From: Squalus acanthias
Taxonomy: Eukaryota
Assembly (NCBI GenBank): GCA_030390025.1
Contig: CM059432.1
Span: 30,754,001-30,818,000, forward strand
Direction of reading: 5' to 3'
Length of the DNA stretch: 64,000 nucleotides
The notes under the pieces were generated by a model. The model did not search any database. It was not told the origin of the DNA and was given only the letters and a program-made list of their open reading frames with translations. The position numbers and the translations under genes are program-made. Below are positions 7,969 through 61,045 of the stretch, in pieces. Within the stretch, counting starts at the first letter, position 1. Each line of letters begins with the position of its first letter.

Positions 7969-9129
7969 CTAGAAGCGGCTTGCTATTAGCCGTTGACGGA
8001 CGGCCCTTGCAGTTTCACCATTGTGGGCCGCCCTCCCGCCTTGGTGCTGCTGATGATCATCCTCCTCGTCCTCTTCCTCCTCTTCCTCCTCCTCCTCTGG
8101 TGGTGCTCCAAGGCCTGGTGGCATTGGCTGGGTCCTGAGGATTGCCATGTTATGCAACATGCAGCACACAACTACGAAGTTGGATACTCGCTCAGGCGAG
8201 TACTGCAGGGCTCCTCCAGAATGGTCGAGACAGCGGAACCGTTGCTTCAGCACGCCGATTGTGCGCTCAATTATGTTCCTGGTAGCTTGATGGCTCTCAT
8301 TGTACCACAGCTCAGCAGGGGTGTTGGGCGTACGGAGCGGTGTCATCAGCCAGGTGCTCAATGCATACCCCTTGTCCCCGAGAAGCCAACCAACTGGCTG
8401 ATGCGGTGCCTCAAAAAGTTCTGCCACAGTAGTCTGGCGCAGGATAAAAGCATCGTGGCAGCTGCCAGGATAGTGGGCATTGACAGCGAGTATCAGCTGT
8501 CTGTGGTCACAGACCAACTGAACATTCAAGGAATGGAACCCCTTTCTGTTCCGGAATTCCTCGGCATTCTCATGCGGAGCACGCAAAGCCACATGCGTGC
8601 AGTCAATGGCGCCCTGCACCATGGGGAAGCCCGCTACCCTCGCAAAGCCCAGAGCGCGGTCACGCTGCTTGTCTGGGGTCATGGGGAAAGAGATGAACTC
8701 TCGTCTCCTTTTAAAGAGGACATTTGTGACCTGCCGGATGCAGCAATGCACTGCGAACTGGGAGATATTGGCGAGGTCCCCAGCAGCAGCTTGAAATGAG
8801 CCAGTAGCGTAGAAGTTGAGAGCCACTGTGACCTTCACTGCCACCGACAGAGACGTCCTGGACTTCAGTTGAGGCTGCAGATCTGGCTGCAGCAGGTGGC
8901 AGAGCTCAGTGACCACCTCCTTGCTGAATCACAGCCTTCGCAAACACAGCTCCTCAGACATATGAAGGTAGGAGAGCTGTTCACGATATACCCTGGGAGG
9001 GTAAGCTCTCCTGTACATACGCCTGTTGGCCCTCCTCCGTCTGGCCATCATTGCCACTCTCTCTCTGCGTCTCTGTGTCCTCCGATTCAGCTGGAGCAGG
9101 ACGACGCCCCCAATCAGTGCAGCCCCCAT
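7969..9129 (-). pseudogene. Harbinger DDE transposase (HARBI1-like, 386 aa) with in-frame TGA at 8929-8931
   Basis: GAIDCTHV, NRKGFHSLNVQLVCD, PGSCHDAFIL, LLGDKGY, RNIIERTIGVLKQRFRCL, CCMLHN. Confidence 0.93.
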
Positions 9130-14133: not shown

Positions 14134-14452
14134 TTGAGAGGTCGCACAACACCAGGTTATAGTCCAACAGTTTTATTTGAAATCACAAGCTTTCGGAGCT
14201 ATCGATTGCCCCTTCCTCAGGTGAAGTAAATAGATACAGAATCGCCAAAGCATATATAGATAGAGAACAAAGCATGTGTACCTTACAATTGCAGACAACT
14301 AAATTAAATCATCCTTACTATCTGCCGAGGTGTGATAAAGTTAATCAGGTCAGCCAGGAAGGTACCACATCAAAGACATAGCACGATACAACTGAGACAA
14401 TGAGGTGGAGTCGCAGGGGGTCTAACGTGTCAATAAATAGATACAGAATCCA
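14134..14452 (-). mobile_element. Penelope family B pLTR fragment inserted in CR1
   Basis: Reverse complement of ~23320-23613; CR1 sequence resumes on both sides. Confidence 0.85.
14183..14224 (-). ncRNA. Minimal hammerhead ribozyme (Penelope family B)
   Basis: Minus strand TCAC-CTGAGGA-a-GGGGC..GCTCC-GAAA-GCTT-GTGA. Confidence 0.75.
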
Positions 14453-16359
14453 TGGCTAATAAAGGCAAGCATTCTGTATGCCTTCTTAACCACCTTATCT
14501 ACCTGGCCTGCTACCTTCAGGGATCTGTGGACATGCACTCCAAGGTCCCTTTGTTCCTCTACACTACTCAGTGTCCTACCATTTAATTTGTATTCCCTTT
14601 CCTTGTTAGCCCTCCCCAAATGCATTACCTCACACTTCTCTGGATTGAATTCCATTTGCCACTGTTCTGCCCACCTGACCAATTTATTGATATCTTCCTG
14701 CAGTCTACAGCTTCCTTCTTCAGTATCAACCACACAGCCGACTTTAGTATCATCTGCAAACTTCTTAATCATACCCCCTATATTCAAGTCTAGATCATTG
14801 ATATATACCACAAAAAGCAAGGGACCTAGTACTGAGCCCTGCAGAATCCCATTGGAAGCAGCCTTCCAGTCACAAAAACATCCATCAACCATTACCCTCT
14901 GCTTCCTGCCTCCGAGCCAGTTTTGAATCCAAATTGACACTTTACCCTGGATCCCATAGGCTTTTAACTTCGTGACCAGTCTGCCATGTGGAACCTTATC
15001 AAAAGCCTTGCTAAAGTCCATATACACTACATCAAATGCACTACCCTCATCTACCCTCCTTGTTACCTCCTCAAAAAATTCAATCAAGTTTGTCAGACAC
15101 GACCTTCCCTTAACAAATCCGTGCTGACTATCCTTGATTAATTCGTGTCTTTCTAAATGAAGATTTATCCTGTCCTTCAGAATTCTTTCCAATAATTTTC
15201 CCACCACCAAGGTTAGGCTGACTGGCCTGCAATTACTCGGTCTATCCTTTTCTCCCTTTTTAAACAAGGGTACCACATTAGCAGTCCTCCAGTCCTCCGG
15301 CACCACACCTGAAGCCAGTGAGGATTGGAAAATGATGGTCAGGGCCTCTGCTATTTCCTCTTTTGCTTCGCCTAATAGCCTGGGATACATTTTATCCGGG
15401 CCTGGGGATTTATCCACTTTTAAAGCTGCTAAACCCTCCTTCCTCTCTCACTATGTTTATTTCATCTAATATTTCACACTCCTCCTCCCTGATAGCAATG
15501 TCTGCTTCGCCCCTCTCCTTTGTGAAAACAGATGCAAAGTATTCATTAAGATCCCTACCGACAACTCCCGCCTCCACTCACAGATTACCCTCATGATCTC
15601 TAATAGGCCCTACCCTTTCTTTAGTTATCCTCTTACTCTTAATATAATTATAAAACATCTTTGGGTTAACCTTGATTTTACTTGCCAAGAATTTTTCATG
15701 CTCTCTCTTTGCTTTCCTAATATCCTTTTTAATTGCACCCCTGCACTTTCTGTACTCCTCTAAATATTCTGGAGTATTTAGCCCTCGGTATCTGTCATAC
15801 GCCTCCCTTTTTTTCTTTATCCTACCCTGAATGTCCCTAGAAATCGAGGGGGCTCTAGATTTGTTAGTCATAGACATCACAGATATCACAGACTGGCTGT
15901 TGGATCCTCTGAGCCAACAGCCAGGTGATTTCTGCAAAGTTGAAAGGTTTGATGAGTCCTGAACACAAGGGCTCATCAAACTACACAGAATGTCTGTTTG
16001 ACAGCTTCACAGAGCTGTCAAATGATGACATTTCTTCTTTCAAAAGTTCTTGACAGATGGCACGTCATATGTTTACGTGCTCTGTCACTGACTTCCCAAT
16101 AATTGGTCTGCTGAGCCCGCTGGGCGGGCTTAACAAGGTCAATCAGGGGAAAATCCCGCTGATTGGCCAGAAGCTGATGGAGGTGGGATTAGAAGCCGGC
16201 AAGCAGCAGTCCCACCTCCAAAAGCTTCCCATTGAGAAAATCCAGCCCATAGCATTACTTATCCATGGGTCTGCAGCCAAACTTGGAGAATCATCACTGT
16301 TGGGCAACTGCACATGCAGAGTTGTTCTTGTGTTGCCCAGTCTATAACCAGATAGAAAA

Positions 16360-24225: not shown

Positions 24226-24805
24226 CTCCTCCTCCTCCTCCTCCTCCTCAGCTGGTTGCTGTATGCCTGGTGACAAGGGCTGTGCGCTCATGATGGCGAG
24301 GTTGTAGAGCATGCAGCAGACCACGATGAATCTTGAGTACTGCAGGGCTCCTCCAGAGCGGTCCAGGCAGCAGAAGCGTTGTTTAAGGATGCCAATGCTG
24401 CTCTATCAGATTCCGTGTGGCAGCATGGCTTTCATTGTACGCATGCTGCCCACGTGTGCATGGGATGCGCAGCAGAGTCATGAGCCAGGTGGTCGGCCGA
24501 TAGCCCTTGTCACCCAGTAGCCACCCTGTGATTTGTCATGGTGGCTCAAAGACTGAGGGAACAGTGGACTGTTGCAGAATAAAAGCATTATGACTGTTGC
24601 CAGGATACTGGGCATTCACCATTATGATGTGCTGAGCATGGTCGCACACCAGCTGCACATTCAGCGAGTGGTAACCTTTGCGGTTGCAGTACATCTCAGC
24701 ATTTAGAGACGGTGCCCGCAAAGCCACGTGCATGCAGTCGATGGCGCTCTGCAGCATGGGCAAGCCCGCTATCCTGGCAGAGCCACTTGCACGTTCCGCC
24801 TGCAT
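24100..24805 (-). pseudogene. Degenerate Harbinger transposase of copy C
   Basis: SAIDCMHVALRAP, NRKGYHSLNVQLVCD, VCCMLYNLA and acidic tail; broken reading frame. Confidence 0.85.
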
Positions 24806-24958
24806 CTCCAGTTTTGAAGATGAAAATGGCAGCTTGCCCTACCGCCCTCCAGATGGTGTCCAGCGTGGCCCACACCAGTATTGCGCGCACATGGCGCGGA
24901 TGCCATTTTCGACACAAAACGGCACCTGTAGCGCCTAAAAATCAGGCGCTACAGAGCC

Positions 24959-25946
24959 TGTAAAGTTTCCAAAATTTGCAGATCCCCAAAAATCTAAGGG
25001 AAAAAAAATAAGGACTTTGGAACTTTAAAGGAACATGTCTGGACATGTACAGCACGTGGATCTACCTCTGTGAATAGTAGGCTTGAGGATTGCATTGTCT
25101 GGGAATTCAAAGCCCAGCAAACATTGACATTTGGACAATAGGTCCTGGGAGAAGGCCGCCCCACCCAAAACACAGAACCCATAGGAATGCTAGGCCCAGC
25201 AAGGAACCCAAAACATGAGAACAATGCAAATTTCCATAAAACAACAGCTCAACAGGACGCAAGCCATTTGACTCAGTAAAAGCCGTTACTGTAACGAGGT
25301 TTTTCAATTGACCAGGATTTGATTTGGTTTAGCATAGTTGAAGGCCCATCAAAATTTAACAAGACAATGAATAGGCCTCACGTGAAACCAACTCACTTCA
25401 TTACGAAACCAGTTTTCGTGAGGAGTTTTGGGGGGGGGGCGAAAAGGACTATAATTGCAGCATGACCCAAGACTTCTTTCTCTTTTGACTCGCCGACAAC
25501 GCTGGCACAACTCTCCCTCTCAGCTCTGCCCAGAAGCCGCATGGTAAAGGAAGACATTCGATGACCAGAATCACCATCAACTTACCTGACTGGATTTCGT
25601 ACTGTTAATACCCCTGTTTGGTGAGCATTATCGCTGATCTCCTGAAACCGAAACCTAGCTAGAAAGTGGGATTTTTGGGAGGGATAAAGGTTTTTCTTGT
25701 ATACTGTCATTCTCCCTCGCTTGTAACCGTGTGTTCCCCAAACCTGTTTAAGTGTGAAGTGTGTTTAAGTTTGTTACCTTTTATTTTTAATAAAAGTTAT
25801 AATTCTTTCATCAGAACCTGTTGTCTACTGCTTCTTTATTCACAACCCCTAAATAAGTCCAAGTTTTGAACCTGGGGCGTGGGAGCGATTCGAACCGCTC
25901 ACTGAGTCAGGGGAAAGGCTGACCCCTACCACCACCACCCCCTACA
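24959..25946 (+). repeat. 5' LTR
   Basis: TGTAAAG...CCTACA; ACTATAATT ~25448, AATAAA 25789; roughly 20 differences from the 3' LTR counted by eye. Confidence 0.95.
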
Positions 25947-25950
25947 AAAA

Positions 25951-25968
25951 TGGTGACCGCGGCAGGAC
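25951..25968 (+). promoter_or_regulatory. Primer-binding site, tRNA-Arg(UCG)-like
   Basis: TGGTGACCGCGGCAGGAC matches 17/18 to the complement of the vertebrate tRNA-Arg(TCG) 3' end GTCCTGCCGCGGTCGCCA (recalled sequence); the mismatch is at a CpG. Confidence 0.75.
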
Positions 25969-26020
25969 TTGGCAAAAGGGTTGTGAAGCAGTAGACACTG
26001 ATTCGGAAGAGAGAACTGTA

Positions 26021-27724
26021 ATGGAAGAGAGGATTTCAGATTATGTATTCAGCAAAGTGAATATGGAAAAGAAATGGGTCACTAATCTATTAAAAACTGG
26101 GCGCCCGGTAGATGCAGCAGCTAAATGGACAGAAGGGAAGGATCATAAAAAAATCCTTAGAAAAGGCAGTCTGGCTGATGTGCTTCAAGAAACAGATCCA
26201 ACTTTTGGACAGACTCATTGAAGAACAGGCAGCCGAGATTCGGGAGTCAGCCCTGGAAGTCCAAACAAAGGCCCTAGCAGGGGAGAAGTTACTGTTAGCA
26301 TTGCAGGCGCTAAACCAGGAAAGGGTGCAGTTAGTGGGGGAACACAAGACCCGGCAGGAATATTTACAGTGCCAGGTCACTGAGGCCAAGAACAATGAGC
26401 TGAGGTTGCGGGAAAGAATGCCCGCCTGGCAAAACAAGCAAGAGAGCAGGAGGAGACAGTAAAAGGCTTACAGGCAGCCTATAAGGTAATGAGCGCACAG
26501 GGGTTTGAGGATGCAGACCATTGCCCCTGCCAGAAGCATATAGAGAATCTCAGCCTTGCTCTAAGGAACGCAAGAGGCGTGGCGTGCCTCATAAGCCCAA
26601 GTGCAGCCCAGGTTGACTTTACAGGGAACCTGGGGAGAACGGTTCAGACACCAAAGATAGCGCCAAGGGACGACCCGGTTGAGGAGCGGGAGGGCCCACG
26701 ACCACCACCCATAGCGCCAAGCTTTAGCACAGTCTGGCAAGTAGAAGGGGTGGAGTTAGGGGTAGAAGCTGAGGTGGAAAAAACCCCCGCAAGAGAGGCT
26801 GGGACCGGGGCCGATGTGCCCGGCCCGGCAGGAAAGGTTTGGCCCACCCTCCAAAGCCAGTTTGTGGCTCGCCACGGTACACAACAGCTTAGGGTTATGG
26901 TAAGCCACCTGAGTAAACTCACCCAACAAGGGGACCCCTCAGTTCACTTCATAGAGGTAGAACAGGCCGCAGGCATCAACGACTGTGACGATGCCGAGAT
27001 GGCAAAACTGCTCCTGTTCTCACTGGATAGCCGGCTATACCAGTCTCTCTCTGCTGAGAGCAAGAGAGGACAGAATGGATATGCAGCCATCAGAGAGGAA
27101 GTTTTAGAGGCCATGGGGATGAATGAGGGCAGTCCTTTCTCCCGGGTGGAGAAAACAGTGCAGCTCGCAGGAGAGACCCCACAGGCTTTTGCAGACAGGC
27201 TGTGGCCCGTGTACAGGGGTGCTTGTGGTGGGGATCTTAACAGGGCTCACCTAAACTGGGACGAGCTGGCCCACTGGCTCCGTAGCCTAGTGGCAAACAG
27301 CTTGCCTCGGATCAAAACCCAGGCTGAGCTTTGGTTTGACCCGAAAGACCCCCAGGTCACCGAGGAGGCAGTGGTCAGACAGCTGAACCTGGCCTACCGG
27401 AACGGGAGAGGGGTGGAAGAGCCCCCACAAAAAGGGAAAGTACATGAAATAAAACCCGGCCAGAGTAGGAAGGAGTGGCATCAGGAGGGGAATAACCCTT
27501 CCAGCACAAAGCTTAACTGTTATGGGTGTGGGAAGGATGGTCACTGGAGGAAGGAGTGTAAGAATCTTTGGAAGGATAACAAGGGAAAGAATTCCTCAGC
27601 CCCAGCCCAAAAGGCAGAGACAGGGATCCCTCCCGCCACGGTCGAGTCATTTTTGGATGCCATGAGGTCCCTATTGAGTGGCCCAGGGAAGGTAGCAGCA
27701 GCCCCATACAACCCAGACCTATGA
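26021..27724 (+). pseudogene. gag: Gag-like protein (~567 aa) with two compensating frameshifts (~26150 A-run, ~26416)
   Basis: N-terminal coiled coil; capsid-like Q..GETPQAFADRL (MHR-like) segment; zinc knuckle CYGCGKDGHWRKEC. Confidence 0.85.
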
Positions 27725-28808
27725 CTGGAACCAGCGCAGCCTGCCTACCTGTGTCCCCTTGAAAGACACGCACAGGAAGAGACCTCCCGTAAGGAGGCCA
27801 GGTTAAATGAGCAGGCCTTACTGGAGGAGAACGCCCGCTTAATGGGGAAAGTAGACGGGCTAGAGGGGCAGCTTAGAGACATAAAGGCAGCCTACAGGGC
27901 AGCCAGGAGCAGGGAGTATGAGGATTTAAACCATGGGCCCTGTGAGGAAAGGATAAAAGGTCTGACCCAAGCCCTATCCAAAGCCAGAGGGATGGTTTGC
28001 TCAACAACCCCGGGGGAATTCATCACCCCGCAGTTGCAAGCCATGGTAGCAGAGTTGATCAAACTAAAACAGGATAGAAATCCTCAGCCTGCAGCAGGAC
28101 CAAATTCACAGACTGCACAAGCAGGGGTGGTGGCCTGTCTTGAGGGAGGAGTCACCCAGGCCCCTGTTCAAACCACCCCCCCCTCTCTTCTGGGACTCAG
28201 GTGGGGAGGAGGAGGAGCCTGAACCAGATAGCCCCGCCCCCGACCCAGGTTTTGAACCTGGAGGCGAAAATCCTCAGCCTGCAGCAGGAGAAAATTCACA
28301 GACTGCACAAGCAGGGGCGGTGGCCTGTCTTAGGGGAGGGGCCACCCCACCCACCATTTGGGACATTCCCCCAATCCTCTGGGATTTAGAGGAGGAGGAG
28401 CCGGAACCAGATAGCCCCGCCCCCGACCCAGGTTTTGAACCAGCACCAGGCTGTGAAGAGTCACCTGACCCTGACACAGGTTTAGAAGAGGTACAGTCTG
28501 AGGATAGAAATCCCCAGCCAGTGGCAGTGGAAGATTCACAGACCACACAACAGGGGGCAGTGGCTCGTGTTAAAGACCCACCAGCCAGAAAACCCCCACC
28601 AGCCAGAGCCCCTAGAAGGTCCCCACGAACGCCACAGCCAAAGAAACCGTGGTCACCGGCTCCCCAATTTAAAAGGGCCGCCCCTCAAACCAGGGATCGA
28701 TCTGAGGACAGAGGTTCCCAGCCAGCAGCCATAGGCTGCAAGGGACCAAAGGTACAGGACAGGGCCACACCAAAGGGAGTAGTGTGCTGCAGCCCTAACA
28801 GGGTTTAG
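27725..28808 (+). other. In-frame post-gag ORF X: diverged gag-like module plus Pro/Glu-rich repeats (frameshift in C-run ~28180); occupies the pol position
   Basis: Open in the gag frame from 27725 to 28222; similar to gag 26380-26590; no protease, RT, RNase H or integrase motifs. Confidence 0.65.
28070..28575 (+). repeat. Imperfect tandem repeats (~190-240 bp units) in ORF X
   Basis: NPQPAAG.NSQTAQAG.VACL-type unit three times; EEEEPEPDSPAPDPGFEP twice. Confidence 0.85.
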
Positions 28809-29020
28809 TCTGGCCGCTCGGAGACGGGCGGCGAATGTACAAAGCTTTTGTTGTTAAATTTTGAGATTGTTAAGTTTGGGTATTTTTAGTTAAATTTTAA
28901 GTAAGGTGGTTGGTAGTTTTAAATGTTATAGTTTCAAGCGTGTTTTGTATTGAGTCGAGGTCGCAAGACCCGACTATGCTTCACCCAAGCCAGAGAATCT
29001 ACTCGGGACCTGGCTATATG

Positions 29021-29039
29021 CTCTTGTGTCTCCTTACAG
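29021..29039 (+). promoter_or_regulatory. Candidate env splice acceptor
   Basis: ctcttgtgtctccttacAG ending 15 nt upstream of ATG 29054. Confidence 0.6.
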
Positions 29040-29053
29040 AAGGGATTGTCGAT

Positions 29054-32000
29054 ATGAAGGGGGGCATTCTCCTACTCGCTCTGATAGGAATGCGCGCTGG
29101 GAGGCGAGGTGACGTGGAGGACTCCCACATTTTTGGGTGCTCAGGAGAGAGAGCACCGGTGGTGACTGCGGATGGCAGCAAGCGAGGCGTGAAGGAGCTC
29201 GCTACCTATTCCCACGTGGGAAGATGGCCAGGGTGGCTGGGATCTAACTCCACCCGATACTCCAGTCAGACCGGGCTCACCTACGGGGAGGCCTCCCTCC
29301 CCTGTCCCAGCATACAGGTTGTAGCCACTCGGGTCGGGGTCACTGAGGGGAAACACGTGTGCCTGACTTGCAGAGGAAAGATTCCCCTGGGAAGGTGGTG
29401 GTGGCTCAGGAAGCTGAGCAGAGACATGGGGGACCATACAGCTGACTGGGAGCGACTGGGGAATGACACCCATCGGACCATTACAGGGGACCATAGGGCG
29501 GTGAGCGTGTGCTGGGACAAGTGGTGGAAATCGGAACAGGGGATTTATGTCTGCATGTGGGGGTTGCGGAAGGCCTGCCCCACGGGCATATCCATTATCT
29601 TTTCCGCAGCATGGCTGCATAAGGGGAAGGGGGTGGAATGGGATTCCCACCTACACACTTGCATAGTCCTGCCCTCTCCAGCCCCAGTCAAGGCCACTGA
29701 ACTCGTGGCACATGCCCGTAAGTCCCTGCCCACGACCCAGACAGCAAGGACACACACAGAGACATGCCCTACCACCACCAAGGGACCAGGGAATAAGAAC
29801 ATAAGAACATAAGAAATAGGAGCAGGAGTAGGCCAATCGGCCCTTCGAGCCTGCTCCGCCATTCAATAAGATCATGGCTGATCTGATCCTCACCTCAAAT
29901 CTAAAGAACACAAGAAGTAGGAGCAGGACCCGGCCACTCAGCCCCTGGGCCCGCTACGCCACCCACAGGGCCTCGACCGATCCGAACTCAGCCTCATGTC
30001 CAATTTCCTGCCCGCTCCCCGTAACCCCTAATTCCCTTTACTTCTAGGAAACTGTCTATTTCTGTTTTAAATTTATTTAATGATGTAGCTTCCACAGCTT
30101 CCTGGGGCAGCAAATTCCAAAGACCTACTACCCTCTGAGTGAAGAAGTTTCTCCTCATCTCAGTTTTGAAAGAGCAGCCCCTTATTCTAAGATTATGCCC
30201 CCTAGTTCTAGTTTCACTCATCCTTGGGAACATCCTTACCGCATCCACCCGATCAAGCCCCTTCACAATCTTATATGTTTCAATAAGATCACCTCTCATT
30301 CTTCTGAACTCCAATGAGTAGAGTCCCAATCTACTCAACCTCTCCTCGTATGTCCACCCCCTCATCCCGGGGATTAACCGAGTGAACCTTCTTTGTACTG
30401 CCTCGAGAGCAAGTATGTCTTTTCTTAAGTATGGACACCAAAACTGTATGCAGTATTCCACATGCGGTCTCACCAATACCTTATATAACTGCAGCAATAC
30501 CTCCCTGTTTTTATAATCTATCCCCCTAGCAATAAAAGCCAACATTCCGTTGGCCTTCTTGATCACCTGCTGCACCTGCATACTAACTTTTTGATTTTCT
30601 TGCACTAGGACCCCCAGATCCCTTTGTACTGCAGTACTTTCCAGTTTCTCGCCATTAAGATAATAACTTGCTCTCTGATTTTTCCTGCCAAAGTGCATAA
30701 CCTCACATTTTCCAATATTGTATTGCATCTGCCAAATCTCTGCCCACTCACCCAGCTTGTCTATATCCCCTTGTAGGTTTTTTATGTCCTCCTCACTTTC
30801 TACTTTCCCTCCCATCTTTGTATCATCTGCAAACTTTGATATGTTACACTCGGTCCCCTCCTCCAAATCGTTAATATAGATTGTAAAGAGTTGGGGACCC
30901 AGCACCGACCCCTGCGGAACACCACTGGCTACTGGTTGCCAGTCCGAGAATGAACCATTTATCCCAACTCTCTGCTTCCTGTTAGATAACCAATCCTCCA
31001 CCCATGCCAGAATATTCCCCCCAATCCAGTGATTTTTTATCTTGAGCAATAATCTTTTATGTGGCACCTTGTCGAATGCCTTCTGGAAGTCTAAATACAC
31101 TACGTCCATTGGTTCCCCTTTATCCACCCTGTACGTTATGTCCTCAAAGAACTCAAGCAAATTTGTCAGACATGATTTCCCCTTCATAAAGCCATGGTAC
31201 TAGTGCCAACCGAAAAGGTGCTATACCAGGGGGTACACTACGTGGTAGCTTCCGTGATCCTAAACCTCACGGAGGTAAACTTACCTGAGTGGTGCCCCAA
31301 AGAGACGGAACAGCTATACCAGGCCCTGTTCAGAGAAATGTTCAGGAAGTTCTACGAGTTCGATTTCACAAACGTAGACAAAGCAGAACTGTGCACTGCA
31401 CACACTGAGTATTTTAACAATACGGGGAGACAAAGGAGGGGAGCCTGGAATTATATTTTTACAGCATAAAATACAGGGTCCTCTGTCATCAACAGTCTGG
31501 ATGACATAGAATTGCAGACACAAATAAACGGTTTAAAAACACAATTGCGCAAAATCTTAATGGATGAAAATACAGTAGTGGGCTCAGAGTTACACGAGGA
31601 CCAAGCTATGACAGTCCATTTAAAAGAAATCATTGCTGAGCTGGAAAGGCACGCAAAGACAGTAAATGCACTCATACGGGAGGACAGGAATGCATCAGAC
31701 CAGGCTGCACAGAACGAGGTGTGCATACTGTACGGGGCATGGTTGCTAGGCGAGGGCCAGAGTAACCTGAAGGATTTAAAGCAAGGTTTAGTCCCCTCCT
31801 GGATCAGCAACAAGCACCTCGCAGCCCTCCACCCATTTGAGAATTCACTAAGCCCGTGTCAGCTCCGTCTAGCCTCTGAAGCCTACCCTGTACCAGTAGA
31901 TTGTGGGTGTTCCAATCACAGTATCATGGGGATAGTGGTGAGGATGCCGGTCACGGGTGGGACCGCCCGACCCGCACTGGTATACAGGGTGGAGAACATT

Positions 32001-32267
32001 GGAGTCATTCAAGGGGGTGCACACATCCGTTTCACAGCAGTCCCACCTTATGTCATGAAGTGGGAGCACGCTATGACAGGTACTGACCTCTCCGGGTGCC
32101 GGAGCCGGGGTTCACACATAATACTGTGTCCCCAGCACTTGAACGCCTATTCTAAACCACAGTGTGGGTTTAAAGCTGCGGGCGCATGACCTATAAACTG
32201 TACCATGGATGTAATGGCACAAGACCATGTTTCCCCATTTAAAGGGGAGTGTATGTTTGGGTTTTAG
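29054..32267 (+). pseudogene. env: Env-like gene: signal peptide, Ig-like domain, Thr-rich linker, F-like fusion ectodomain; split by CR1 (29793-31194), stops at 31467 and 32187, no TM
   Basis: MKGGILLLALIG leader; EGKHVCLTC..W.W..EQGIYVC; RQRR at 31428-31439 followed by GAWNYIFTA; heptad region; GIVVRMP and DLSGC....HIILCP Cys pattern. Confidence 0.8.
29793..31194 (-). mobile_element. Young 5'-truncated CR1 LINE inserted in env
   Basis: Uninterrupted 397-aa RT C-terminal ORF (29994-31187), KFADD, (ataagaac)n tail. Confidence 0.95.
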
Positions 32268-32350
32268 TTTAGGTATTACAGGGGAAGGTTGGTTTTCGGG
32301 GATCAGGAATTTTGTCCACCCAGGACGATATTGTAGTGAACTGGAAGTAT

Positions 32351-32362
32351 CGCAGGAGGGAC
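32351..32362 (+). promoter_or_regulatory. Polypurine tract
   Basis: cgcAGGAGGGAc directly before the 3' LTR. Confidence 0.6.
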
Positions 32363-33349
32363 TGTAAAGTTTCCAAAATTTGCAGATCCCCAAAAATCTA
32401 AGGGAAAAAAATAAGGACTTTGGAACTTTAAAGGAACATGTCTGGACATGTACAGTACGTGGATCTACCTCTGTGAATAGTAGGCTTGAGGATTGCATTG
32501 TCTGGGAATTCAAAGCCCAGCAAACATTAACATTTGGACAATAGGCCCTGGGAGAAGGCCGCCCCACCCAAAACACAGAACCCATAGGAATGCTAGGCCC
32601 AGCAAGGAACCCAAAACATGAGAACAATGCAAATTTCCATAAAACAACAGCTCAACAGGACGCAAGCCATTTGATTCAGTAAAAGCCGTTACTGTAACGA
32701 GGTTTGTCAATTGAACAGGATTTGATTTTGTTTAGCATAGTTGAAGGCCCATCAAAATTTAACAAGAGAATGAATAGGCCTCATGTGAAACATACTCACT
32801 TCATTACGAAACCAGTTTTCGTGAGGAGTTTTGGGGGGGGGGCGAAAAGGACTATAATTGCAGCATGACCCAAGACTTCTTTCTCTTTTGACTCGCCGAC
32901 AACGCTGGCACAACTCTCCCTCTCAGCTCTGCCCAGAAGCTGCATGGTAAAGGAAGACATTCGATGTCCAGAATCACCATCAACTTACCTGACTGGATTT
33001 CGTACTGTTAATACCCCTGTTTGGTGAGCATTATCGCTGATCTCCTGAAACTGAAACCTAGCTAGAAAGTGGGATTTTTGGGAGGGATAAAGGTTTTTCT
33101 TGTATACTGTCATTCTCCCTCGCCTGTAACCGTATGTTCCCCAAACCTGTTTAAGTGTGAAGTGTGTTTAAGTTTGTTACCTTTTATTTTTAATAAAAGT
33201 TATAATTCTTTCATCGGAACCTGTTGTCTACTGCATCTTTATTCACAACCCCTAAATAAGTCCAAGTTTTGAACCTGGGGCGTGGGAGCGATTGGAACCG
33301 CTCACTGAGTCAGGGGAAAGGCTGACCCCTACCACCACCACCCCCTACA
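32363..33349 (+). repeat. 3' LTR
   Basis: Direct repeat of 24959-25946. Confidence 0.95.
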
Positions 33350-35370
33350 AGCCAGATTTCTAGCCCGCTGTGCCTTTCCAACATTTCCGGTTTTGATTTG
33401 AAGTTGCATGAGCTGTTCTGTATGCACTCTGTATTCTGCATCTCATTATCCAATTGTCTCGTAATTAACTGCAGCTGAAACTACAAAATGGCGCCAACTG
33501 GAGCTCGTTATACTGTTTGGTTTCCTTGCAATGTTTCCTTGGAAGCTGCCAAAACAGAACAAAAAAAATTACAGAGTATTTTAGAAATCTTTTGACCGAT
33601 TATTTAATAAATTTTTGCATTGCAAGTTTTTTTCGGAAAAATTGGGTGTAATGTGACCCCTGGCACAACACAGGATAGCTACCTCATGTTGTACCTATTA
33701 CAGAAATTGCTTGGATACTGCCTGAATCAATCACTACGCTCGTATTCCACTGTATTCACTGCAATTGACAACATCAAGAGGAATCAGATGATCATAGCAA
33801 GAGCAGCACTAGCAATGGACAAGTTATTGTGGCCAACAGGACCAAACTGTGGAAATAAGTAGATTGCGTAAAGACAGAAAATTGGTCTCTGCCCCATTTT
33901 TAGAGTGTGCATTAACACGCTCATGCTAAACCCCAATCTGCTTTATTCAATAAAGTATTATACAATAGCATACAAGTAGCATAGAATGAAGTGAATAGAA
34001 TTAGCACAGGGAGGCTGAGAAAGGGATTTGGGACTGGCATAGACTTGTCACTTGCAATGTTGAGAAAACGTAGAGCAACGTAACCAGAACAGTGGAGTAT
34101 CAGGTGCTGAACTTCCACAGGGTTTCTCCCAAACGACTGCCCTAGCTTTGGCGGAGGTCTGCAGAAACATCGGTGAAAAGGCTTAAACGCCCTTTACGCC
34201 ATTGCTCCCGGGTTTCTGCCAATCTTCTGCTGAAGTTATGGTGGATGAGCGGGAGAACCCTAATGTAAATTCAGCCCCTAAGTCTGCAATGGCTATGCTG
34301 TCAGTTTATAATGTGCTGGGCAGACCTCATTTGGAGAGGTGTGTACAGTTCTGATCGGGAGCATGTAAAGAGGAGAGCTGTAAGGAAAGATTAGAGAGGC
34401 TTAAACTCAACAGACCAGCAAGAAGTTGGTTATGAGGGGACCTTACTGAGGGATATGAAAATATTAAATTGGGCAGGTCAGGTGAACACAATAGAAGCAT
34501 GAGAAAAACAGACATCGAGCCAAAGAGGAATAGATTAGGGAGTGGGATGGTGTTGGTGCCGAGGATACAGGGTTTGTGCCAAAGGCCACTATGGCTGCAA
34601 TTTTACTTACCTCGGCGGGACGACATAAATGGCGGGTCCCGACCCCGCCGCTGTCTCCATCCCAGACTCTGAAATGACTTTCCCCTGATTGGGCTTGTTA
34701 AGCCCGCCCAGCGCATTTCCCAGCCAATTAGAGGAAGTGGGTCTGGTGACGTCTTTTGATGACGCGTCATCAGCCGGTTTCCTTAAAGGGACCATGGCCA
34801 ACTTTATTCTGGCATTTGTGCTGTCAGTGTTCTACAGCATTGAGGTGCTGCAAACACTGACAATCACTGCACAGAGGTGCAGGGTTGCACCCAGGTTCTC
34901 CCATGACTCCCTCCATATGCTTATGGAGGGAGCCACAGCACGCAGGAAGGTCCTCTTCCCTTTCCATGGGCGGAAGAGACCTCCCCAGGACACCAACACA
35001 GCCTGGTTGCACATTGCAGAGGAGATCACAAGCAGGGATGTGGTCAGGAGGACCTGGGTGCAGTGCCGCAAATGTTTCAATGATCTCAGTAGATCACGAA
35101 ACATAAGTACAAAGCCACACTCAACCTCATCCTGCTGTGCCTCTCATCACATCCCCATCACGCTGCCTTCCCTACCCTACTCCTGCACATCCTTACTCAC
35201 ACCAACTTTTCGTTCACCCCCACCCACCCATCTCTCTCTATCTACATTATCACATCCCCATCTCACTAGCCACCGCTCACACTCACCCTCATCCTCGTGC
35301 AATCATACCAACTAACAACACATGAGGGTAGGCACTTGGGTGTTTTATGCAATGTTCATGTAAAGTTTTT

Positions 35371-49970: not shown

Positions 49971-52900
49971 TGTCGTAAGAATGAGCCTTACGCGTGGTAA
50001 ACTTAATGTAAGCTTTAATCAACTTAAAACGGTGCTGCATACAAAAGAGGTCTTACCCTATGCCTCTTCCAGAGCTAACTGATCAGTCCAGTATTTATCC
50101 TGGACTGATTACAGGAAGTGATGTCATACAGGAAGCTGAAAAGTGTTACCACATTCTCCCCCCCCAAAAGATTAGGAGGCCGGAATGCTCCCTCCATTTC
50201 GTAGCCGTTGGATGAGGGAGAGCCGCACCCGTTTGGGTTCTCGTAGCGGTAGAGGGCCCCTAGCCCGTTTACCCGCTGCGGGCCATGGACCAGAGTCCGA
50301 GTGCTCCAGCCCGCTCTGTGAGGGGTCAGAACGATCCTGACTGTGTACTGGTACCCGAATGGGTGTCGGGCAGGGCTGTGGCAGATCCGTTTCTGAGCGT
50401 ACGGTACAGGGTTGATCGTGGCTGCGCGTGCGAGCCCCGACGGGCTCATAGTCAGTCTGCCCCAGGTCGGCACGCTGGAGTGAGGTACCAGCCGGCGTCA
50501 GATCCCGATCATGATGAGAGGCACCTGGCAAGCCCAGAGATGTGCCTGGTACAATATCATCCCCTGGTGTCCCTCTATGTTTCGGCGGGCAGGGAGCCAG
50601 ATCCCGCAATGACACGGTAGATTCCCGACCGTCAGGATACCGAATATAGGCGTAGGTAGGGTTGACGTCAGTGAGCTCAACCTCATCTACCAGGGGGTCA
50701 TTCTTAGACGCCCGGACATATCTTCGGAGTAGCACTGGTCCCGGTGCAGTCAGCCACGACGGGAGAGATGTCCCATAGGATGAGCGACGCTGAAATCGGA
50801 AGAACCGTTCATGAGGCGTCGTATTTGTGGCGGTCGAAAGGAGGGACCGTGTGGAGTGTAATGCGTCTGGAAGTACTGCTTCCCAATGCTGGTTGGGTAG
50901 GCCCCGAGATCTCAAAGCCAGACGTACCGCATTCCAGATGATAGCGTTAAAACGCTCGACTTGCCCATTCCCAACCGGATGATAAGGCGTCGTTTTGCTG
51001 GCAGCAATACCCCGTTCCGAGAGATAGGCCTTGAGTTCTCCCGACATAAAAGAAGGGCCCCGATCTGAATGAACATAGGATGCCATGCCACAGAAAGCAA
51101 ATACCTGTTCAAGGCAGCTGATAACCGTGGTTGTCAGCATATTGGGGCAGGGAAAGGCAAACGGAAAACGAGAATACTCATCAACCATTGTTAATAGATA
51201 AGTGTTGCGAGTCGAAGAGGGCAACGGCCCCTTAAAATCGATGCTAAGCCTTTGCATTGGCTGGGTCGCATGTATGAGTATACCACCCGAGGGGCGGAAA
51301 AACCGAGGTTTCAATTCCGCACAGACTCTGCAGTCCGAGCACATCTTCTTTACATCCCCGGTAGAGAATGGGAGATTTCGGGACCGCACGAAGTGCAGCA
51401 TGCGAGTAACGCCTGGATGACACAACCCATCATGGATGTCTACGAGCGTAGAGGGTGCCATGGCGGAGCAGAATGCTCGTGTGAGGGTATCCGGAGCCAC
51501 ATTCTCCTTGCCAGGTCGATAGTGGATGGTGTAACCAAAAGAGGCCAATTCCAGCCGCCAAAGCTGGATTTTATTATTTTTAATTTTGGTCCGTTTTCGA
51601 TTATCGAGCATGAAGGCGACCGATCGCTGGTCCGTGATTAAGGTAAAGTGCTGGCGAGCCAGGAGATGACTCCACTTCCGTACTGCCTCTATGATGGCTG
51701 TAGCTTCTTTCTCGACTGGAGGATAATGTAGCTCAGCCCCTTGAAAAGTCCTGGACAAAAATGCCACCGGACGACCTTCCTGATTCAGAGTGGCTGAGAT
51801 TGCCACCTCCGAGGCATCACACTCAACCACGAAAGGAAGACTCTCATCGATGGAGTGAAGAGCCGCTTTCTCCAACTGCTTTTTCAGGAGGTTAAAGGCT
51901 GCAACAGCCGTTGTGTCTAGTGGGAATGTGCTGGCCTTCAGTAGAGGTTGGATTCGGTCCGAGAAGTTAGGAATCCATTTCGCATAGTATGCAAACAGGC
52001 CGAGGGCCCGGCGCAAGGAGGCCGGATTCTTAGGTGGCGGGAGTTCTTGGAGTGGGCGAAGCCTTTCAGGGTCAGGTTTAATGATGCCATTGCCCACACA
52101 ATAGCCAAGGATGTTGATAGTTGGTTGTGACTCAATGGATTTAGCCGCATTCAATGTCAAATTACGGTGCTGGAGTGCATCCCAAAATCGTTGGAGATTG
52201 GCGTCATGTTCCTGCTGATTGCGACCTGCGACAGTAATATTGTCCAGATAAGGAAACGTATCCTTCAAGTCTTCCTGTTTCACCAGGTCATCCATTGCTC
52301 GCTGGAAGACAGCCACTCCATTAGTGACCCCAAAGGGGAGGCGACGAAATTGATACAGCCGCCCATTGGCTTCAAAGGCTGTATACTGCTTGTCTGAGAC
52401 CTTCAAGGGTACCTGATGATAGGCGCTTTTCAGATCATAAGTCGAGAACACCGTATACTCAGCCAATTTATTAACCATATCATCGATGCGCGGCAATGGG
52501 TATGCGTCCAAGTCCGTATACTGATTGATGGTCTGTGAATAGTCAATGCACAGCCGTTTCTTGTGAGGTTGTAGAGGGTTCTTAACAATAACGACCTGGG
52601 CGCGCCATGGCGACGAACAAGGCTCGATGATATCCTCTGCTAAAAGCCGAGAAATCTCAGCCGCAATAAAAGACTGGTCTTCCTGACTGAAACGGCGTGA
52701 CTTTGTTATAATCGGTTTGCATCGAGGAGGGATACTGGCAAACAGTGAGGGTTCATCCAGTGAAGCTGCTGACAAGGCACAGAACGGTAATCGAGGTCGT
52801 ATATTAGAAATAGTGAGTTCAGGTTTGGATCCGCCGAACTCAATGGTAAGCTTCTTATGCTGCTTTTGAAAATCCAGCCCTAAGATAAGATCACTACATA

Positions 52901-54390
52901 AGTCCTTGAGCACCGAAAGCCGGGTGGAGGGATACCTGTGACCTTTAAGCATTATTTCAACTACACAGAAGCCAGAAATTCTGGTATTAAGTGATGACTG
53001 AGCCATCGCAACTGCCTGGTCCGATGGAAAAACATGTAGCTTTAACTGTGCAACAGTCTGTTCCCTAATGAAACTATCAGTGCTACCTGAGTCAATTAAG
53101 GCATCTAAAGTATGTCCATTAATTGATGCTTTTGTAGCTGCATGGAATAGATTCTGAGGACAAGCAGCTGTAATTGGTGTCGTTGCACAAAGAGTGGCTG
53201 AAATTCTAGGTGTGTTTCTTCGAGAAAAAACCCGAGAGGAAGCACGATAGTTTTTAGTTGGAACATCCTGATAGGCCCTTACTGGGGCAGTTCGGTAGGA
53301 CTTAGCTTGATAAGCCCTCGTAGAGGCTCTTGATAGGCAAACCTTTACAAAATGACCCTTTTTGTTGCAATGACTGCAAAACGCATTGCGAGCAGGGCAG
53401 AATCTCCGAGGGTGAAACTCATCACCACAAAAAAAGCATTTCTTAGATTGCCAAGAGGCTGCCACAGTGGGGTCATCATCCTCTTCATCAGTGAAGTCAT
53501 CAGATCGATCGTCAGGGATAAAGTCCTCCCTAATAGAGTTCACCTGTGGCCTCTTAAATTGCCTGACTGTAGTTAAGGCAGCAGACCGAGGTCTGGGCAC
53601 TGTAAAAAGGTCTGCATTTCTTTTTGCCAGATCTAGAGAGCAAGCCAGGTCATAAGCTCTCTGCAGCTCAAGTGTCTTACTTTCCAGTAGACGCTGGCGT
53701 ATAAATGGGGAGGCAAGCCCGCAGATGAACGCATCACGGATCATTTCTTCGCGGTATAGCTCAGCTGAGGCTGCCCGAAAGTTACAGTCCATACTAAGTC
53801 TGCGAAGCTCTTGGAGGAATTTATCAATGGATTCCTCCGGCCCTTGTTGGGCTGTAGCTAGTAGATGTCTAGCATAGACCTCATTCGGTGTCTTAGTATA
53901 TAGTCTCTTAAGCGTCTGAATTGCCTCCTCATAACTGTCCCAGTCTTCCACATACTGGAATACATTCGGGGTGACACAGTTGATGAGTATCCGCAACTTT
54001 GAGTTATCATCAGCTTTGCAATACTCAAGAAAATTCTCAAACGTGCGATACCAGTGTTTCCACACCTTACCGGCTGCTGGGGTGTTTGGGTCCAAGTCAA
54101 GACGCGATGGTTTAAGGATGTTTTCCATGATGGGTGATTCCCTGGATCCTTAGCTCCGAGTTCGTCCAAAAAGTTTGAGTGCGAAGTTTTTCAAAAGTTG
54201 ATTAAATTGTCGTAAGAATGAGCCTTACGCGTGGTAAACTTAATGTAAGCTTTAATCAACTTAAAACGGTGCTGCATACAAAAGAGGTCTTACCCTATGC
54301 CTCTTCCAGAGCTAACTGATCAGTCCAGTATTTATCCTGGACTGATTACAGGAAGTGATGTCATACAGGAAGCTGAAAAGTGTTACCACA
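49971..54390 (-). mobile_element. Intact Gypsy/Ty3 LTR retrotransposon
   Basis: Identical 183-bp LTRs (49971-50153, 54208-54390), GAAGG TSD (49966-49970 / 54391-54395), PPT GGGGGGGGAGAA, single ORF. Confidence 0.97.
50172..54128 (-). CDS. Gag-Pol polyprotein (1318 aa): Gag, protease, RT, RNase H, integrase
   Basis: Two knuckles (CFFCGDEFHPRRFC, CSHCNKKGHFVKVC), LIDSGS, RLCIDY, LPFG, YLDN, CDAS, H..H..C..C, IDFKGP, SDRG, NGQVER. Confidence 0.96.
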   Translation of the reverse strand: MENILKPSRLDLDPNTPAAGKVWKHWYRTFENFLEYCKADDNSKLRILINCVTPNVFQYVEDWDSYEEAIQTLKRLYTKTPNEVYARHLLATAQQGPEESIDKFLQELRRLSMDCNFRAASAELYREEMIRDAFICGLASPFIRQRLLESKTLELQRAYDLACSLDLAKRNADLFTVPRPRSAALTTVRQFKRPQVNSIREDFIPDDRSDDFTDEEDDDPTVAASWQSKKCFFCGDEFHPRRFCPARNAFCSHCNKKGHFVKVCLSRASTRAYQAKSYRTAPVRAYQDVPTKNYRASSRVFSRRNTPRISATLCATTPITAACPQNLFHAATKASINGHTLDALIDSGSTDSFIREQTVAQLKLHVFPSDQAVAMAQSSLNTRISGFCVVEIMLKGHRYPSTRLSVLKDLCSDLILGLDFQKQHKKLTIEFGGSKPELTISNIRPRLPFCALSAASLDEPSLFASIPPRCKPIITKSRRFSQEDQSFIAAEISRLLAEDIIEPCSSPWRAQVVIVKNPLQPHKKRLCIDYSQTINQYTDLDAYPLPRIDDMVNKLAEYTVFSTYDLKSAYHQVPLKVSDKQYTAFEANGRLYQFRRLPFGVTNGVAVFQRAMDDLVKQEDLKDTFPYLDNITVAGRNQQEHDANLQRFWDALQHRNLTLNAAKSIESQPTINILGYCVGNGIIKPDPERLRPLQELPPPKNPASLRRALGLFAYYAKWIPNFSDRIQPLLKASTFPLDTTAVAAFNLLKKQLEKAALHSIDESLPFVVECDASEVAISATLNQEGRPVAFLSRTFQGAELHYPPVEKEATAIIEAVRKWSHLLARQHFTLITDQRSVAFMLDNRKRTKIKNNKIQLWRLELASFGYTIHYRPGKENVAPDTLTRAFCSAMAPSTLVDIHDGLCHPGVTRMLHFVRSRNLPFSTGDVKKMCSDCRVCAELKPRFFRPSGGILIHATQPMQRLSIDFKGPLPSSTRNTYLLTMVDEYSRFPFAFPCPNMLTTTVISCLEQVFAFCGMASYVHSDRGPSFMSGELKAYLSERGIAASKTTPYHPVGNGQVERFNAIIWNAVRLALRSRGLPNQHWEAVLPDALHSTRSLLSTATNTTPHERFFRFQRRSSYGTSLPSWLTAPGPVLLRRYVRASKNDPLVDEVELTDVNPTYAYIRYPDGRESTVSLRDLAPCPPKHRGTPGDDIVPGTSLGLPGASHHDRDLTPAGTSLQRADLGQTDYEPVGARTRSHDQPCTVRSETDLPQPCPTPIRVPVHSQDRSDPSQSGLEHSDSGPWPAAGKRARGPLPLREPKRVRLSLIQRLRNGGSIPAS

Positions 54391-60529: not shown

Positions 60530-61045
60530 ATTCTCTTTGCCAGAAAAGTAATGAGGTACAGCAACGAAAGTAGCAGCAAAGTTAGGATGAACTAGGCAAA
60601 ACTACCTCACAAAGCGTTGAGTCAATGTAGAAGTCTCTCTCTCTCTCTCTCCGAATCTCTCTCTCTCTCTCAGAACGAGTGGTGCATAAATGTCGACCAC
60701 AGAAAAAGACAGGAAGAGGCCCCCTTTAAATAGCGCCCCCCCCCAGCCCCACACCGATTGATAACGTTCCAGTCTTCCGGTCGTTGGAAGCGCCAGGCGG
60801 TAAGGCAGGGGGCGCCACTCAATTTCCGCTCCGGGGCGCCCCAAGGGCGTTGCACCACGGAATGACGTCACAATCTGCGCGCGCAGGTGGTCGCAGCGGT
60901 AAGTTTTAGCGCCGCCGCACAATCTCAAGTTAAGTTCTCGAGCGGCGCAAACAGCGCTGCGCCCGGGCGTTAGCGCCTTAACGCCCCATTAGCGCCCATT
61001 TAAGGCGCTAACGGGAGGCGCAACCAACTGAATTTTTACCCCATA

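What the first reader, a model, noticed from the sequence alone, without database searches (positions are those of the whole stretch)
24959..33349. Pol-less retrovirus-like provirus with gag, a novel ORF X and an Ig-tipped F-like envelope
Seen: LTR-PBS-gag-X-env-PPT-LTR with an exact 4-bp TSD, LTRs about 2% divergent by eye, and no pol motifs in the 1.3 kb between gag and env. Established: lokiretroviruses are a vertebrate lineage whose Env resembles Mononegavirales fusion proteins. Inference: a non-autonomous, satellite-like relative that keeps structural genes, depends on a helper for enzymes, and has an architecture I do not recognise from described elements. This is the best candidate for an undescribed system in the window.
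Basis: partly seen in the sequence, partly recalled or inferred. Interest (0 to 1): 0.88.

Follow-up and report, generated by a model that had tools for sequence, protein, structure and literature searches.

The report
Enzyme-less shark retrovirus borrowing helper enzymes
This is one decayed copy of a several-hundred-copy endogenous retrovirus family of a cartilaginous fish that kept its coat and envelope genes but replaced its enzyme gene with a short patchwork of its own parts, and that patch has since moved into a second, distantly related virus lineage and made it enzyme-less too.

Summary
The layout is real and inherited. At least 218 loci carry the same gag/X junction, and 0 of 33 fetched copies has any Pol enzyme domain. 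ORF X is not a new gene. It is a hollowed pol: about 65 nt of pol start, a duplicate of Gag's own coiled coil (46% identical), and the non-enzymatic Pol tail (43%), in frame behind the gag stop. Three pol-bearing sister families sit in the same genome and are the likely helpers. Their RT resembles snakehead retrovirus, not lokiretroviruses (by inspection; no reference tree), although the Env looks F-type. New here: a ~430-nt X cassette is 86-100% identical in two backbones whose gag genes are about 65% identical, and the second backbone also exists with a normal pol start (9 of 12 loci). The pol-replacing cassette therefore moved between lineages, which points to co-packaging. The window copy is dead: frameshifts, a LINE in env, no transmembrane end. 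It works like mouse IAP 1Δ1 or chicken EAV-HP. This scan found a pol-less family of this kind before on other DNA of the same genome (e1-8036056).

The parts
24955..24958 (+). Target-site duplication AGCC, left copy
24959..25946 (+). 5' LTR, 988 bp, TG...CA
25951..25968 (+). Primer-binding site for tRNA-Arg(TCG), one mismatch in this copy; overlaps the first gag ATG
25950..27724 (+). gag: coiled coil, capsid, one CCHC knuckle; ends in TGA; frameshifted in its 5' third in this copy
27690..28110 (+). X cassette (approximate ends): the stretch shared at 86-100% with the second, otherwise ~65% identical backbone
27725..27790 (+). ORF X part 1: relic of the pol start, in frame behind the gag stop
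27794..28000 (+). ORF X part 2: duplicate of the Gag coiled coil
28078..28808 (+). ORF X part 3: non-enzymatic acidic/proline-rich Pol tail; tandem ~190-bp duplication and frameshift in this copy
29054..29794 (+). env 5' part: signal peptide and probable Ig-like domain (about 29306-29554)
29795..31194 (-). Truncated LINE inserted in env, private to this copy among those fetched
31195..32237 (+). env F-like part with RQRR cleavage site (31428-31439); in-frame stops; about 720 bp with the transmembrane end missing after 32237
32348..32362 (+). Short purine-rich tract (PPT)
32363..33349 (+). 3' LTR, 987 bp
33350..33353 (+). Target-site duplication AGCC, right copy

Best explanation
A dead copy of a non-autonomous, defective-interfering-like ERV family (B) derived from snakehead-retrovirus-like gag-pol-env ERVs of cartilaginous fishes. 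Shown: in an ancestor close to sister family A2 the enzymatic core of pol (about 1,200 codons) was replaced by a duplicate of the Gag coiled coil, leaving both pol ends as ORF X in frame behind the gag TGA; this layout was then copied to hundreds of sites with normal LTRs and 4-bp TSDs; the ~430-nt X cassette also sits in a second backbone (B2) whose pol-bearing form (A3) is abundant. Inferred: B RNA makes its own Gag, a minor Gag-X read-through product and a spliced Env; it is primed by tRNA-Arg; it is reverse-transcribed and integrated by helper Gag-Pol that co-assembles in mixed particles; co-packaging allowed template switches that moved the cassette into A3 and swapped env segments. Most likely role of X: a retained, translatable stand-in for pol that keeps the read-through signal and RNA geometry, with a possible extra role of the second coil in docking to helper Gag.
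For: 218 exact junction 22-mers, control 0. Pol core absent in 33 of 33 fetched copies, near-full env in 26 of 33, in-frame TGA before X in 25 of 25 locatable copies including the window. X residues 24-92 are 46% identical to the same copy's Gag 145-213, E 6e-17; X tail 43% to the Pol tail, E 6e-34; X start aligns with the pol start. A2 shares PBS type and LTR 3' end; 10 of 10 sampled A2 loci cover 1,277 or more of 1,421 Pol residues. Cassette bins are 86-100% identical in 11 of 11 B2 copies, flanks about 56-86%. 9 of 12 B2-type gag loci chosen for lacking the exact junction continue into protease/RT; the A3 pol-start 22-mer occurs 1,391 times. B1 env is 90-94% identical to A2 in one 450-nt stretch but 70-90% elsewhere, and 2 of 17 B1 copies carry a different env 5' half. 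Shared gag polymorphisms are depleted of amino-acid changes (w 0.38 vs 0.75 for singletons, p 0.032).
Against: No trans-mobilisation, transcript, read-through product or splice was shown. Selection on X within the family is not significant (coil w 0.37 vs 0.78, p 0.32; tail p 0.36), and env shows no within-family purifying signal (F part w 1.16 on 20 shared changes), so env may be a passenger renewed by recombination. Sampled A2 copies look older (LTR pairs 3.7-8.8% apart) than B1 (1.3-4.0%), so the closest relative may not be the working helper. For A3 only the first ~300 Pol residues were seen. The RT tree had no named SnRV or Loki row. Mosaicism could also come from gene conversion between integrated copies.
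Confidence: 0.85

Rival explanations
1. ORF X is an evolved adaptor: the Gag-X read-through protein uses its second coiled coil to recruit helper Gag-Pol or to bias packaging, so the cassette spreads as a selfish module that converts autonomous ERVs into parasites.
For: Three pieces are joined in one frame; X is open for 289 codons or more in 14 of 25 copies; the coil has diverged ~30% in DNA from Gag with w 0.25-0.43; no shared stop codon in X; the cassette succeeded in two backbones.
Against: The pairwise w includes the Gag branch; within-family tests are not significant; homologous crossover keeps the frame by itself; any shorter pol-less genome may have a copying advantage; family C thrives with a different pol relic and no coil.
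Confidence: 0.25
2. X is neutral filler left by one rearrangement; only cis signals and Gag matter, and env is a passenger.
For: No significant within-family constraint on X or env. Gag-only relatives without env exist in the same genome (5 of the 6 non-A1 loci of that group fetched at length).
Against: X tail vs Pol tail w 0.33-0.50 and B1-vs-B2 tail w 0.40 with intervals below 1; the frame stayed open through ~30% divergence; env is near-full in 26 of 33 copies.
Confidence: 0.3
3. The family is a pol-less lokiretrovirus, a Bhikhari-like element that kept env.
For: F-like Env with an RXRR site; Gag with an N-terminal coiled coil, as described for Bik-1; dual RNase H in the relatives.
Against: The relatives' RT matches SnRV at 36 of 47 residues in the core stretch and the one Loki row counted (Loki-Lch) at 25 of 47, counted by eye; 24 of 24 Loki rows have PFG where these have LPQG. 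The Loki survey found none in 3 chondrichthyan genomes. Dual RNase H is shared by all retroviruses.
Confidence: 0.08
4. One-off rearrangement or assembly artefact.
For: The window copy has private damage.
Against: The same junction occurs 218 times on many contigs; exact 4-bp TSDs in 10 of 15 scorable copies; a contig from a run of another coded organism bridges the gag/X junction (record 11).
Confidence: 0.01

Closest known systems
Mouse IAP 1Δ1 elements (PMC6466679, passages)
   Same: Internal deletion in the pol region leaves one ORF for a novel gag-pol fusion; non-autonomous, complemented in trans, yet very successful.
   Different: 1Δ1 lacks env and needs Gag and Pol in trans; here gag is whole, env is kept, a Gag domain is duplicated into the pol slot, and the cassette crossed into a second lineage.
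Chicken EAV-HP (PMC4607243, one passage)
   Same: Defective, env-bearing ERV believed to spread with a helper and to recombine with relatives.
   Different: Alpharetrovirus-like. That EAV-HP carries large pol deletions is recalled, not read here. No in-frame replacement ORF is known to me.
Zebrafish Bhikhari Bik-1/Bik-2 (10.1101/2024.03.25.586437, passages)
   Same: Pol-less fish ERV families with a coiled-coil Gag, recently mobile, helper presumed.
   Different: Gag only, no env; assigned to lokiretroviruses; the passages read name no helper in the reference genome. Family C here is the closer analogue.
Snakehead retrovirus clade (clade Huo / class III; CmiERV lineage I) (PMC6001957 passages; PMC4422223 part 1 of 2)
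   Same: RT motifs of the pol-bearing relatives; in-frame gag-pol stop read-through (SnRV listed in PMC13517186); known from a cartilaginous fish.
   Different: TGA here against UAG in SnRV; short Env tail; SnRV's Env type could not be compared; the element itself has no RT.
Lokiretroviruses (PMC7947760, parts 1-2 of 4 and supplement passages)
   Same: F-like Env with signal peptide, RXKR-type site, fusion peptide, coiled coil and TM.
   Different: RT motifs differ; an extra Ig-like N-terminal arm (the word immunoglobulin is absent from the main text); not reported from Chondrichthyes.

Membership tests
Non-autonomous ERV (IAP 1Δ1 / EAV-HP / Bhikhari kind) | Lacks enzymes needed for replication | tested here: met
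   Pol core covered in 0 of 33 copies and not in the window
Non-autonomous ERV (IAP 1Δ1 / EAV-HP / Bhikhari kind) | Same deleted form inserted independently many times | tested here: met
   218 exact junctions; own LTR pairs in 25 of 33 copies and exact TSDs in 10 of 15 scorable
Non-autonomous ERV (IAP 1Δ1 / EAV-HP / Bhikhari kind) | Related autonomous-type elements with matching cis signals in the genome | tested here: met
   A2: 68 exact pol-start matches, same PBS type and LTR end; A1: 29; A3: 1,391
Non-autonomous ERV (IAP 1Δ1 / EAV-HP / Bhikhari kind) | Mobilisation in trans demonstrated | not testable with these tools
   Only indirect: recombinant mosaics
Lokiretrovirus | RT inside the Loki clade | tested here: not met
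   Tested on the pol-bearing relatives by motif inspection: LPQG vs PFG in 24 of 24 Loki rows; tree without named Loki rows
Lokiretrovirus | Env similar to Mononegavirales F | tested here: met
   Atlas features 0.92-0.94, 10 of 10 best hits in one clan; RQRR site, one TM, no CX6CC. Pfam and PDB sequence searches gave no F hit; fold model unusable
Lokiretrovirus | Dual RNase H (tether plus RH) | tested here: met
   In the relatives' Pol; not diagnostic, shared with all retroviruses; absent from the element itself
Lokiretrovirus | Integrase closest to CGIN1 | not tested
   No integrase tree was built
Lokiretrovirus | Optional smc coiled-coil gene | tested here: inconclusive
   X's coil is a Gag duplicate; Loki smc sequences were not compared
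SnRV clade (clade Huo, class III ERV) | RT groups with snakehead retrovirus | tested here: inconclusive
   36 of 47 core residues match SnRV by eye; tree puts A1, A2, D outside gamma/epsilon-like and gypsy-like rows, among amphibian and coelacanth RTs, but holds no SnRV row
SnRV clade (clade Huo, class III ERV) | gag and pol in one frame behind a single stop | tested here: met
   SnRV read-through in PMC13517186
SnRV clade (clade Huo, class III ERV) | tRNA-Arg primer (recalled for SnRV, not read here) | tested here: inconclusive
   The element uses tRNA-Arg(TCG); the SnRV genome paper was not held
Satellite virus (unrelated to its helper) | No substantial homology to the helper | tested here: not met
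   Gag about 59-65% and Env about 67-82% identical to A2
Ig-fold Env head | Immunoglobulin fold | tested here: inconclusive
   Ig_3 sub-threshold in 7 of 9 proteins; model pLDDT 37, all-beta; best Z 5.9, rmsd 4.4, 110 aligned to IgM-Fc, within background

The most novel reading that the evidence does not exclude
The X cassette is a portable, selfish pol-replacing module. By crossover at the gag end and at the Pol tail it converts co-packaged autonomous retroviruses of different lineages into enzyme-less, env-bearing parasites, and its read-through product (Gag plus a second Gag coiled coil) actively recruits helper Gag-Pol. This would be a transmissible defective-interfering element recorded in a vertebrate germ line.
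Probability: 0.25. Interest if true: 0.82.

Novelty: new variant of a known kind. Interest (0 to 1): 0.52.

Why it matters
Pol-less ERV families are known, but here the parasite, three candidate helper families and the recombination traces all sit in one genome, so the question of which helper serves which parasite, and of why env is kept, can be tested by phylogeny alone. The move of one pol-replacing cassette between backbones about 35% apart is a rare fossil record of defective-interfering evolution. Separately, the helper families pair an SnRV-like RT with an F-type Env. PMC9040795 (passages) states that the Env of canonical retroviruses has no detectable similarity to the Loki/Mononegavirales type; if the RT placement holds, F-type Env is either older or more mobile among retroviruses than that view allows.

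Tried and rejected
Gag search among longer proteins found nothing (weak evidence). AlphaFold2 on whole Env (pLDDT 29) and on the Ig arm (pLDDT 37) was unusable; the fold search on the latter stayed at background Z. Pfam and PDB sequence searches did not detect F homology. A viral-contig scan for a named SnRV-like RT returned none, so the tree lacks SnRV and Loki references. Expression: no RNA holder listed; contigs from guessed-RNA runs cover the region but say nothing on transcription, read-through or splicing. An RNA fold behind the stop codon had no shuffle control and differs between families, so no read-through structure is claimed. One stretch first read as an A2/B recombinant proved to be an env segment where B1 and A2 are generally close. 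Several pairwise dS values are saturated and are not used. The 2,168 candidates are not a copy number. Rejected: a captured host gene or new fold as the origin of X; the Loki smc gene as its origin (the own-Gag match explains the coil); a one-off rearrangement. Earlier-findings look-ups by sequence and by words returned nothing.
Full report
OBSERVATION. The element spans 24959-33349. Its LTRs (988 and 987 bp) differ by 19 substitutions and one gap (K2P 0.0195) and are flanked by AGCC on both sides. A PBS-derived pattern matches 427 places in the genome, and 3 of 3 such loci scanned hold a tRNA-Arg(TCG) gene. Gag has a zinc knuckle and capsid-type features. No catalytic Pol motif lies between gag and env. 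This copy is dead: gag and X are frameshifted, and env carries a 1.4-kb LINE, stops and a ~720-bp loss that removes the transmembrane end. The genome is 3.7 Gb. All named Env and close Gag relatives come from sharks and skates, so the host is very probably a cartilaginous fish (inference).

IT IS A FAMILY. A 22-mer across the X-specific junction occurs 218 times, control 0; this is a floor, since only 24 of the 30 best-matching loci carry it exactly. I fetched 20 best matches and 13 loci spread over the first 100 listed junctions. Of these 33, none covers any of the Pol enzymatic core, 26 cover 750 or more of 764 Env residues, and 25 have a scorable LTR pair. An in-frame TGA precedes X in 25 of 25 locatable cases including the window, and X is open for 289 codons or more in 14 of those 25. 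TSDs are exact 4-mers in 10 of 15 scorable cases. The copies fall into two backbones: B1 (22 of 33, and the window; LTR pairs 1.3-4.0% apart) and B2 (11 of 33, 8 of the 13 spread loci; 0.6-4.4%). At the shark rate assumed in PMC4422223 (2.2e-10 per site per year, flagged there as uncertain) the window copy would be about 44 million years old, so 'young' is relative. Contigs from runs of two other coded organisms tile the region, and one bridges the gag/X junction.

WHAT X IS. Searching the genome with divergent Gag proteins revealed gag-pol-env relatives. Their Pol follows a single in-frame TGA and reads protease, RT, tether, RNase H, integrase, SH3 and then a ~190-residue low-complexity tail. 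X has three parts. (1) Its first ~65 nt align with the pol start, best with family A2. (2) Residues 24-92 are 46% identical to the Gag coiled coil of the same copy, E 6e-17, and about 65-70% identical in DNA to B1 and A2 gag but poorly alignable to B2 gag. (3) The rest is the Pol tail, 43% identical, E 6e-34. So X is pol with its enzymes replaced by a Gag duplicate, and the duplication is old.

HELPERS. A2 has 68 exact pol-start matches. It shares B1's PBS type, LTR 3' end and 4-bp TSD; 10 of 10 sampled loci cover 1,277 or more of 1,421 Pol residues; Gag is about 59-65% and Env about 67-82% identical; scorable LTR pairs are 3.7-8.8% apart (three short pairs at ~20% were left out as not true pairs). 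A1 has 29 matches, another PBS, and LTR pairs about 1-2.5% apart. A3 has 1,391 matches and carries B2-type gag; only its first ~300 Pol residues were seen. A gag-only family C, with a decayed protease relic, the same tail and no env, also exists. Which family served B1 is not settled: A2 is closest but looks older, and A1 and A3 are candidates by age or abundance.

THE CASSETTE MOVED. B1 and B2 are about 65% identical in gag, 55-84% in env and 60-78% in the X tail, yet 96-98% identical over the gag end and first half of X. In 11 of 11 B2 copies the 50-nt bins jump from about 56-86% to 86-100% for roughly 430 nt. A B2-type gag 20-mer occurs 284 times. Of 12 such loci chosen because no exact junction was listed beside them, 9 continue into protease/RT, 2 carry a variant X, and 1 stops. 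The cassette's pol relic and coil match the A2/B1 lineage, not A3, so the direction is B1 into A3 (inference). That B2's tail is A3's own Pol tail is inferred; the A3 tail was not fetched. Env is also mosaic: B1 is 90-94% identical to A2 in one 450-nt stretch, and 2 of 17 B1 copies carry a different 5' half. Template switching between co-packaged RNAs is the established retroviral route to such mosaics; conversion between integrated copies is not excluded.

SELECTION. Between lineages gag and env are constrained (B1 vs A2: w 0.25 and 0.17), but this may predate the loss of pol. Within the family, shared gag polymorphisms are depleted of amino-acid changes relative to singletons (w 0.38 vs 0.75, p 0.032), so B1's Gag mattered while it replicated. 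X points the same way without significance (coil 0.37 vs 0.78, p 0.32; tail 0.68 vs 1.12, p 0.36). Env shows no such signal (F part 1.16 vs 0.91; Ig part 0.65 vs 0.51). Use of env by B copies is therefore not shown.

LINEAGE. In the RT alignment of the Loki paper's supplement (part 71 of 80), 24 of 24 Loki rows read PFG where A1 reads LPQG. Over a 47-residue core stretch A1 matches SnRV at 36 positions and Loki-Lch, the one Loki row I counted, at 25 (by eye). My tree of 52 RT rows places A1, A2 and the distant family D outside the gamma/epsilon-like and gypsy-like rows, among frog, coelacanth and unnamed RTs; it has no named SnRV or Loki row. The Loki survey lists 3 chondrichthyan genomes with 0 hits, whereas SnRV-like ERVs are known from elephant shark (clade Huo). 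Env has a signal peptide, a probable Ig-like arm, RQRR, one TM and no CX6CC; its ectodomain scores 0.92-0.94 against F-protein clusters. The Ig call is sub-threshold but recurs in 7 of 9 proteins; both structure models failed.

MECHANISM. Shown: layout, copy number, origin of X, pol-bearing sisters, mosaics, constraint on Gag. Inferred: LTR transcription; Gag from the ATG inside the PBS; low-level read-through of UGA-CUG, which resembles the type II UGA-CUA/CGG contexts tabulated in PMC13517186, giving Gag-X in place of Gag-Pol; spliced env; enzymes from helper Gag-Pol in mixed particles. That an open frame behind the gag stop protects retroviral RNA from nonsense-mediated decay is recalled, and would explain X without a protein role. 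The bolder reading is that the second coil docks helper Gag-Pol (25%).

NOVELTY. Nine library searches showed no paper on a gag-X-env shark family, on a pol-replacing cassette moving between ERV lineages, or on F-type Env in SnRV-like ERVs. Repbase and Dfam were not searchable; Hart 1996 and Chen 2022 (Env diversity in anamniotes) were not held; bioRxiv supplements were closed, and the Loki supplement was cut when stored. Any of these may already hold these families. Seen: PMC7947760 parts 1-2 of 4 plus supplement passages; PMC4422223 part 1 of 2; passages only of the other 13 papers. Earlier notes of this scan on the same genome describe a pol-less env-bearing family, the SnRV affinity, the Ig-like Env head and tRNA-Arg primer switching; they are unchecked and were read after my own analysis. 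The Gag-coil duplication and the cassette transfer were not in the notes shown. Verdict: real, a new variant of a known kind, interest 0.52.

Noticed in passing
G000, families A1, A2, A3 (e.g. L081-L090, L126-L129, L133-L152, L166-L177): Pol-bearing ERV families that pair an SnRV-like RT with an F-type, probably Ig-tipped Env; the A3 pol-start 22-mer occurs 1,391 times. The RT/Env pairing may matter more than the pol-less layout.
   Followed up: partly
L091, L093-L096, L106-L118: Family C: gag, a decayed protease relic joined in frame to the same Pol tail, no env. A second, independent way of hollowing pol in this lineage; many of its pattern matches lie on C29 and small contigs.
   Followed up: partly
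L051-L065, L097, L099: Distant family D (RT 59% to A1) with F-like env, no Ig arm detected by alignment, another PBS; several copies have pol deletions that bring gag close to env.
   Followed up: partly
L049 vs L046, L048: B2 copies use two different PBS sequences; both overlap the first gag codons.
   Followed up: no
L141/L142, L147/L148, L151/L152: Three A2 copies end in a B-like LTR piece (84-85% to B1, 71-74% to A2) and share the same 3' flank, suggesting one hybrid insertion later duplicated with its surroundings.
   Followed up: partly
G000:C26, about 39.0-42.2 Mb (L102, L103): Long tandem arrays with a 1,623-bp unit holding tRNA-Arg(TCG) and tRNA-Ser(GCT) genes; 427 pattern matches genome-wide, so this ERV's primer tRNA is highly amplified.
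   Followed up: no
L040, L043, L044: Three of the 20 best-match copies sit inside simple or minisatellite repeat arrays.
   Followed up: no
window 24536-24838 (-), 7972-8928 (-), 59642-60601 (-): Harbinger-type DDE transposase pieces (DDE_Tnp_4); the provirus inserted about 120 bp from one of them.
   Followed up: no
window 50175-54149 (-): A 1,325-codon open gag-pol-type frame of an ordinary Gypsy element (protease, RT, RNase H, integrase); no DNA similarity to the provirus.
   Followed up: no
window 1561-3348 (+), 14425-15447 (-), 61431-63707 (-): A Penelope-like RT plus GIY-YIG frame and further LINE pieces.
   Followed up: no
P0002, P0003: Sawshark gene models in which this Env is fused to host Niban-like or zinc-finger sequence; probably annotation chimeras, exonisation not excluded.
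   Followed up: no
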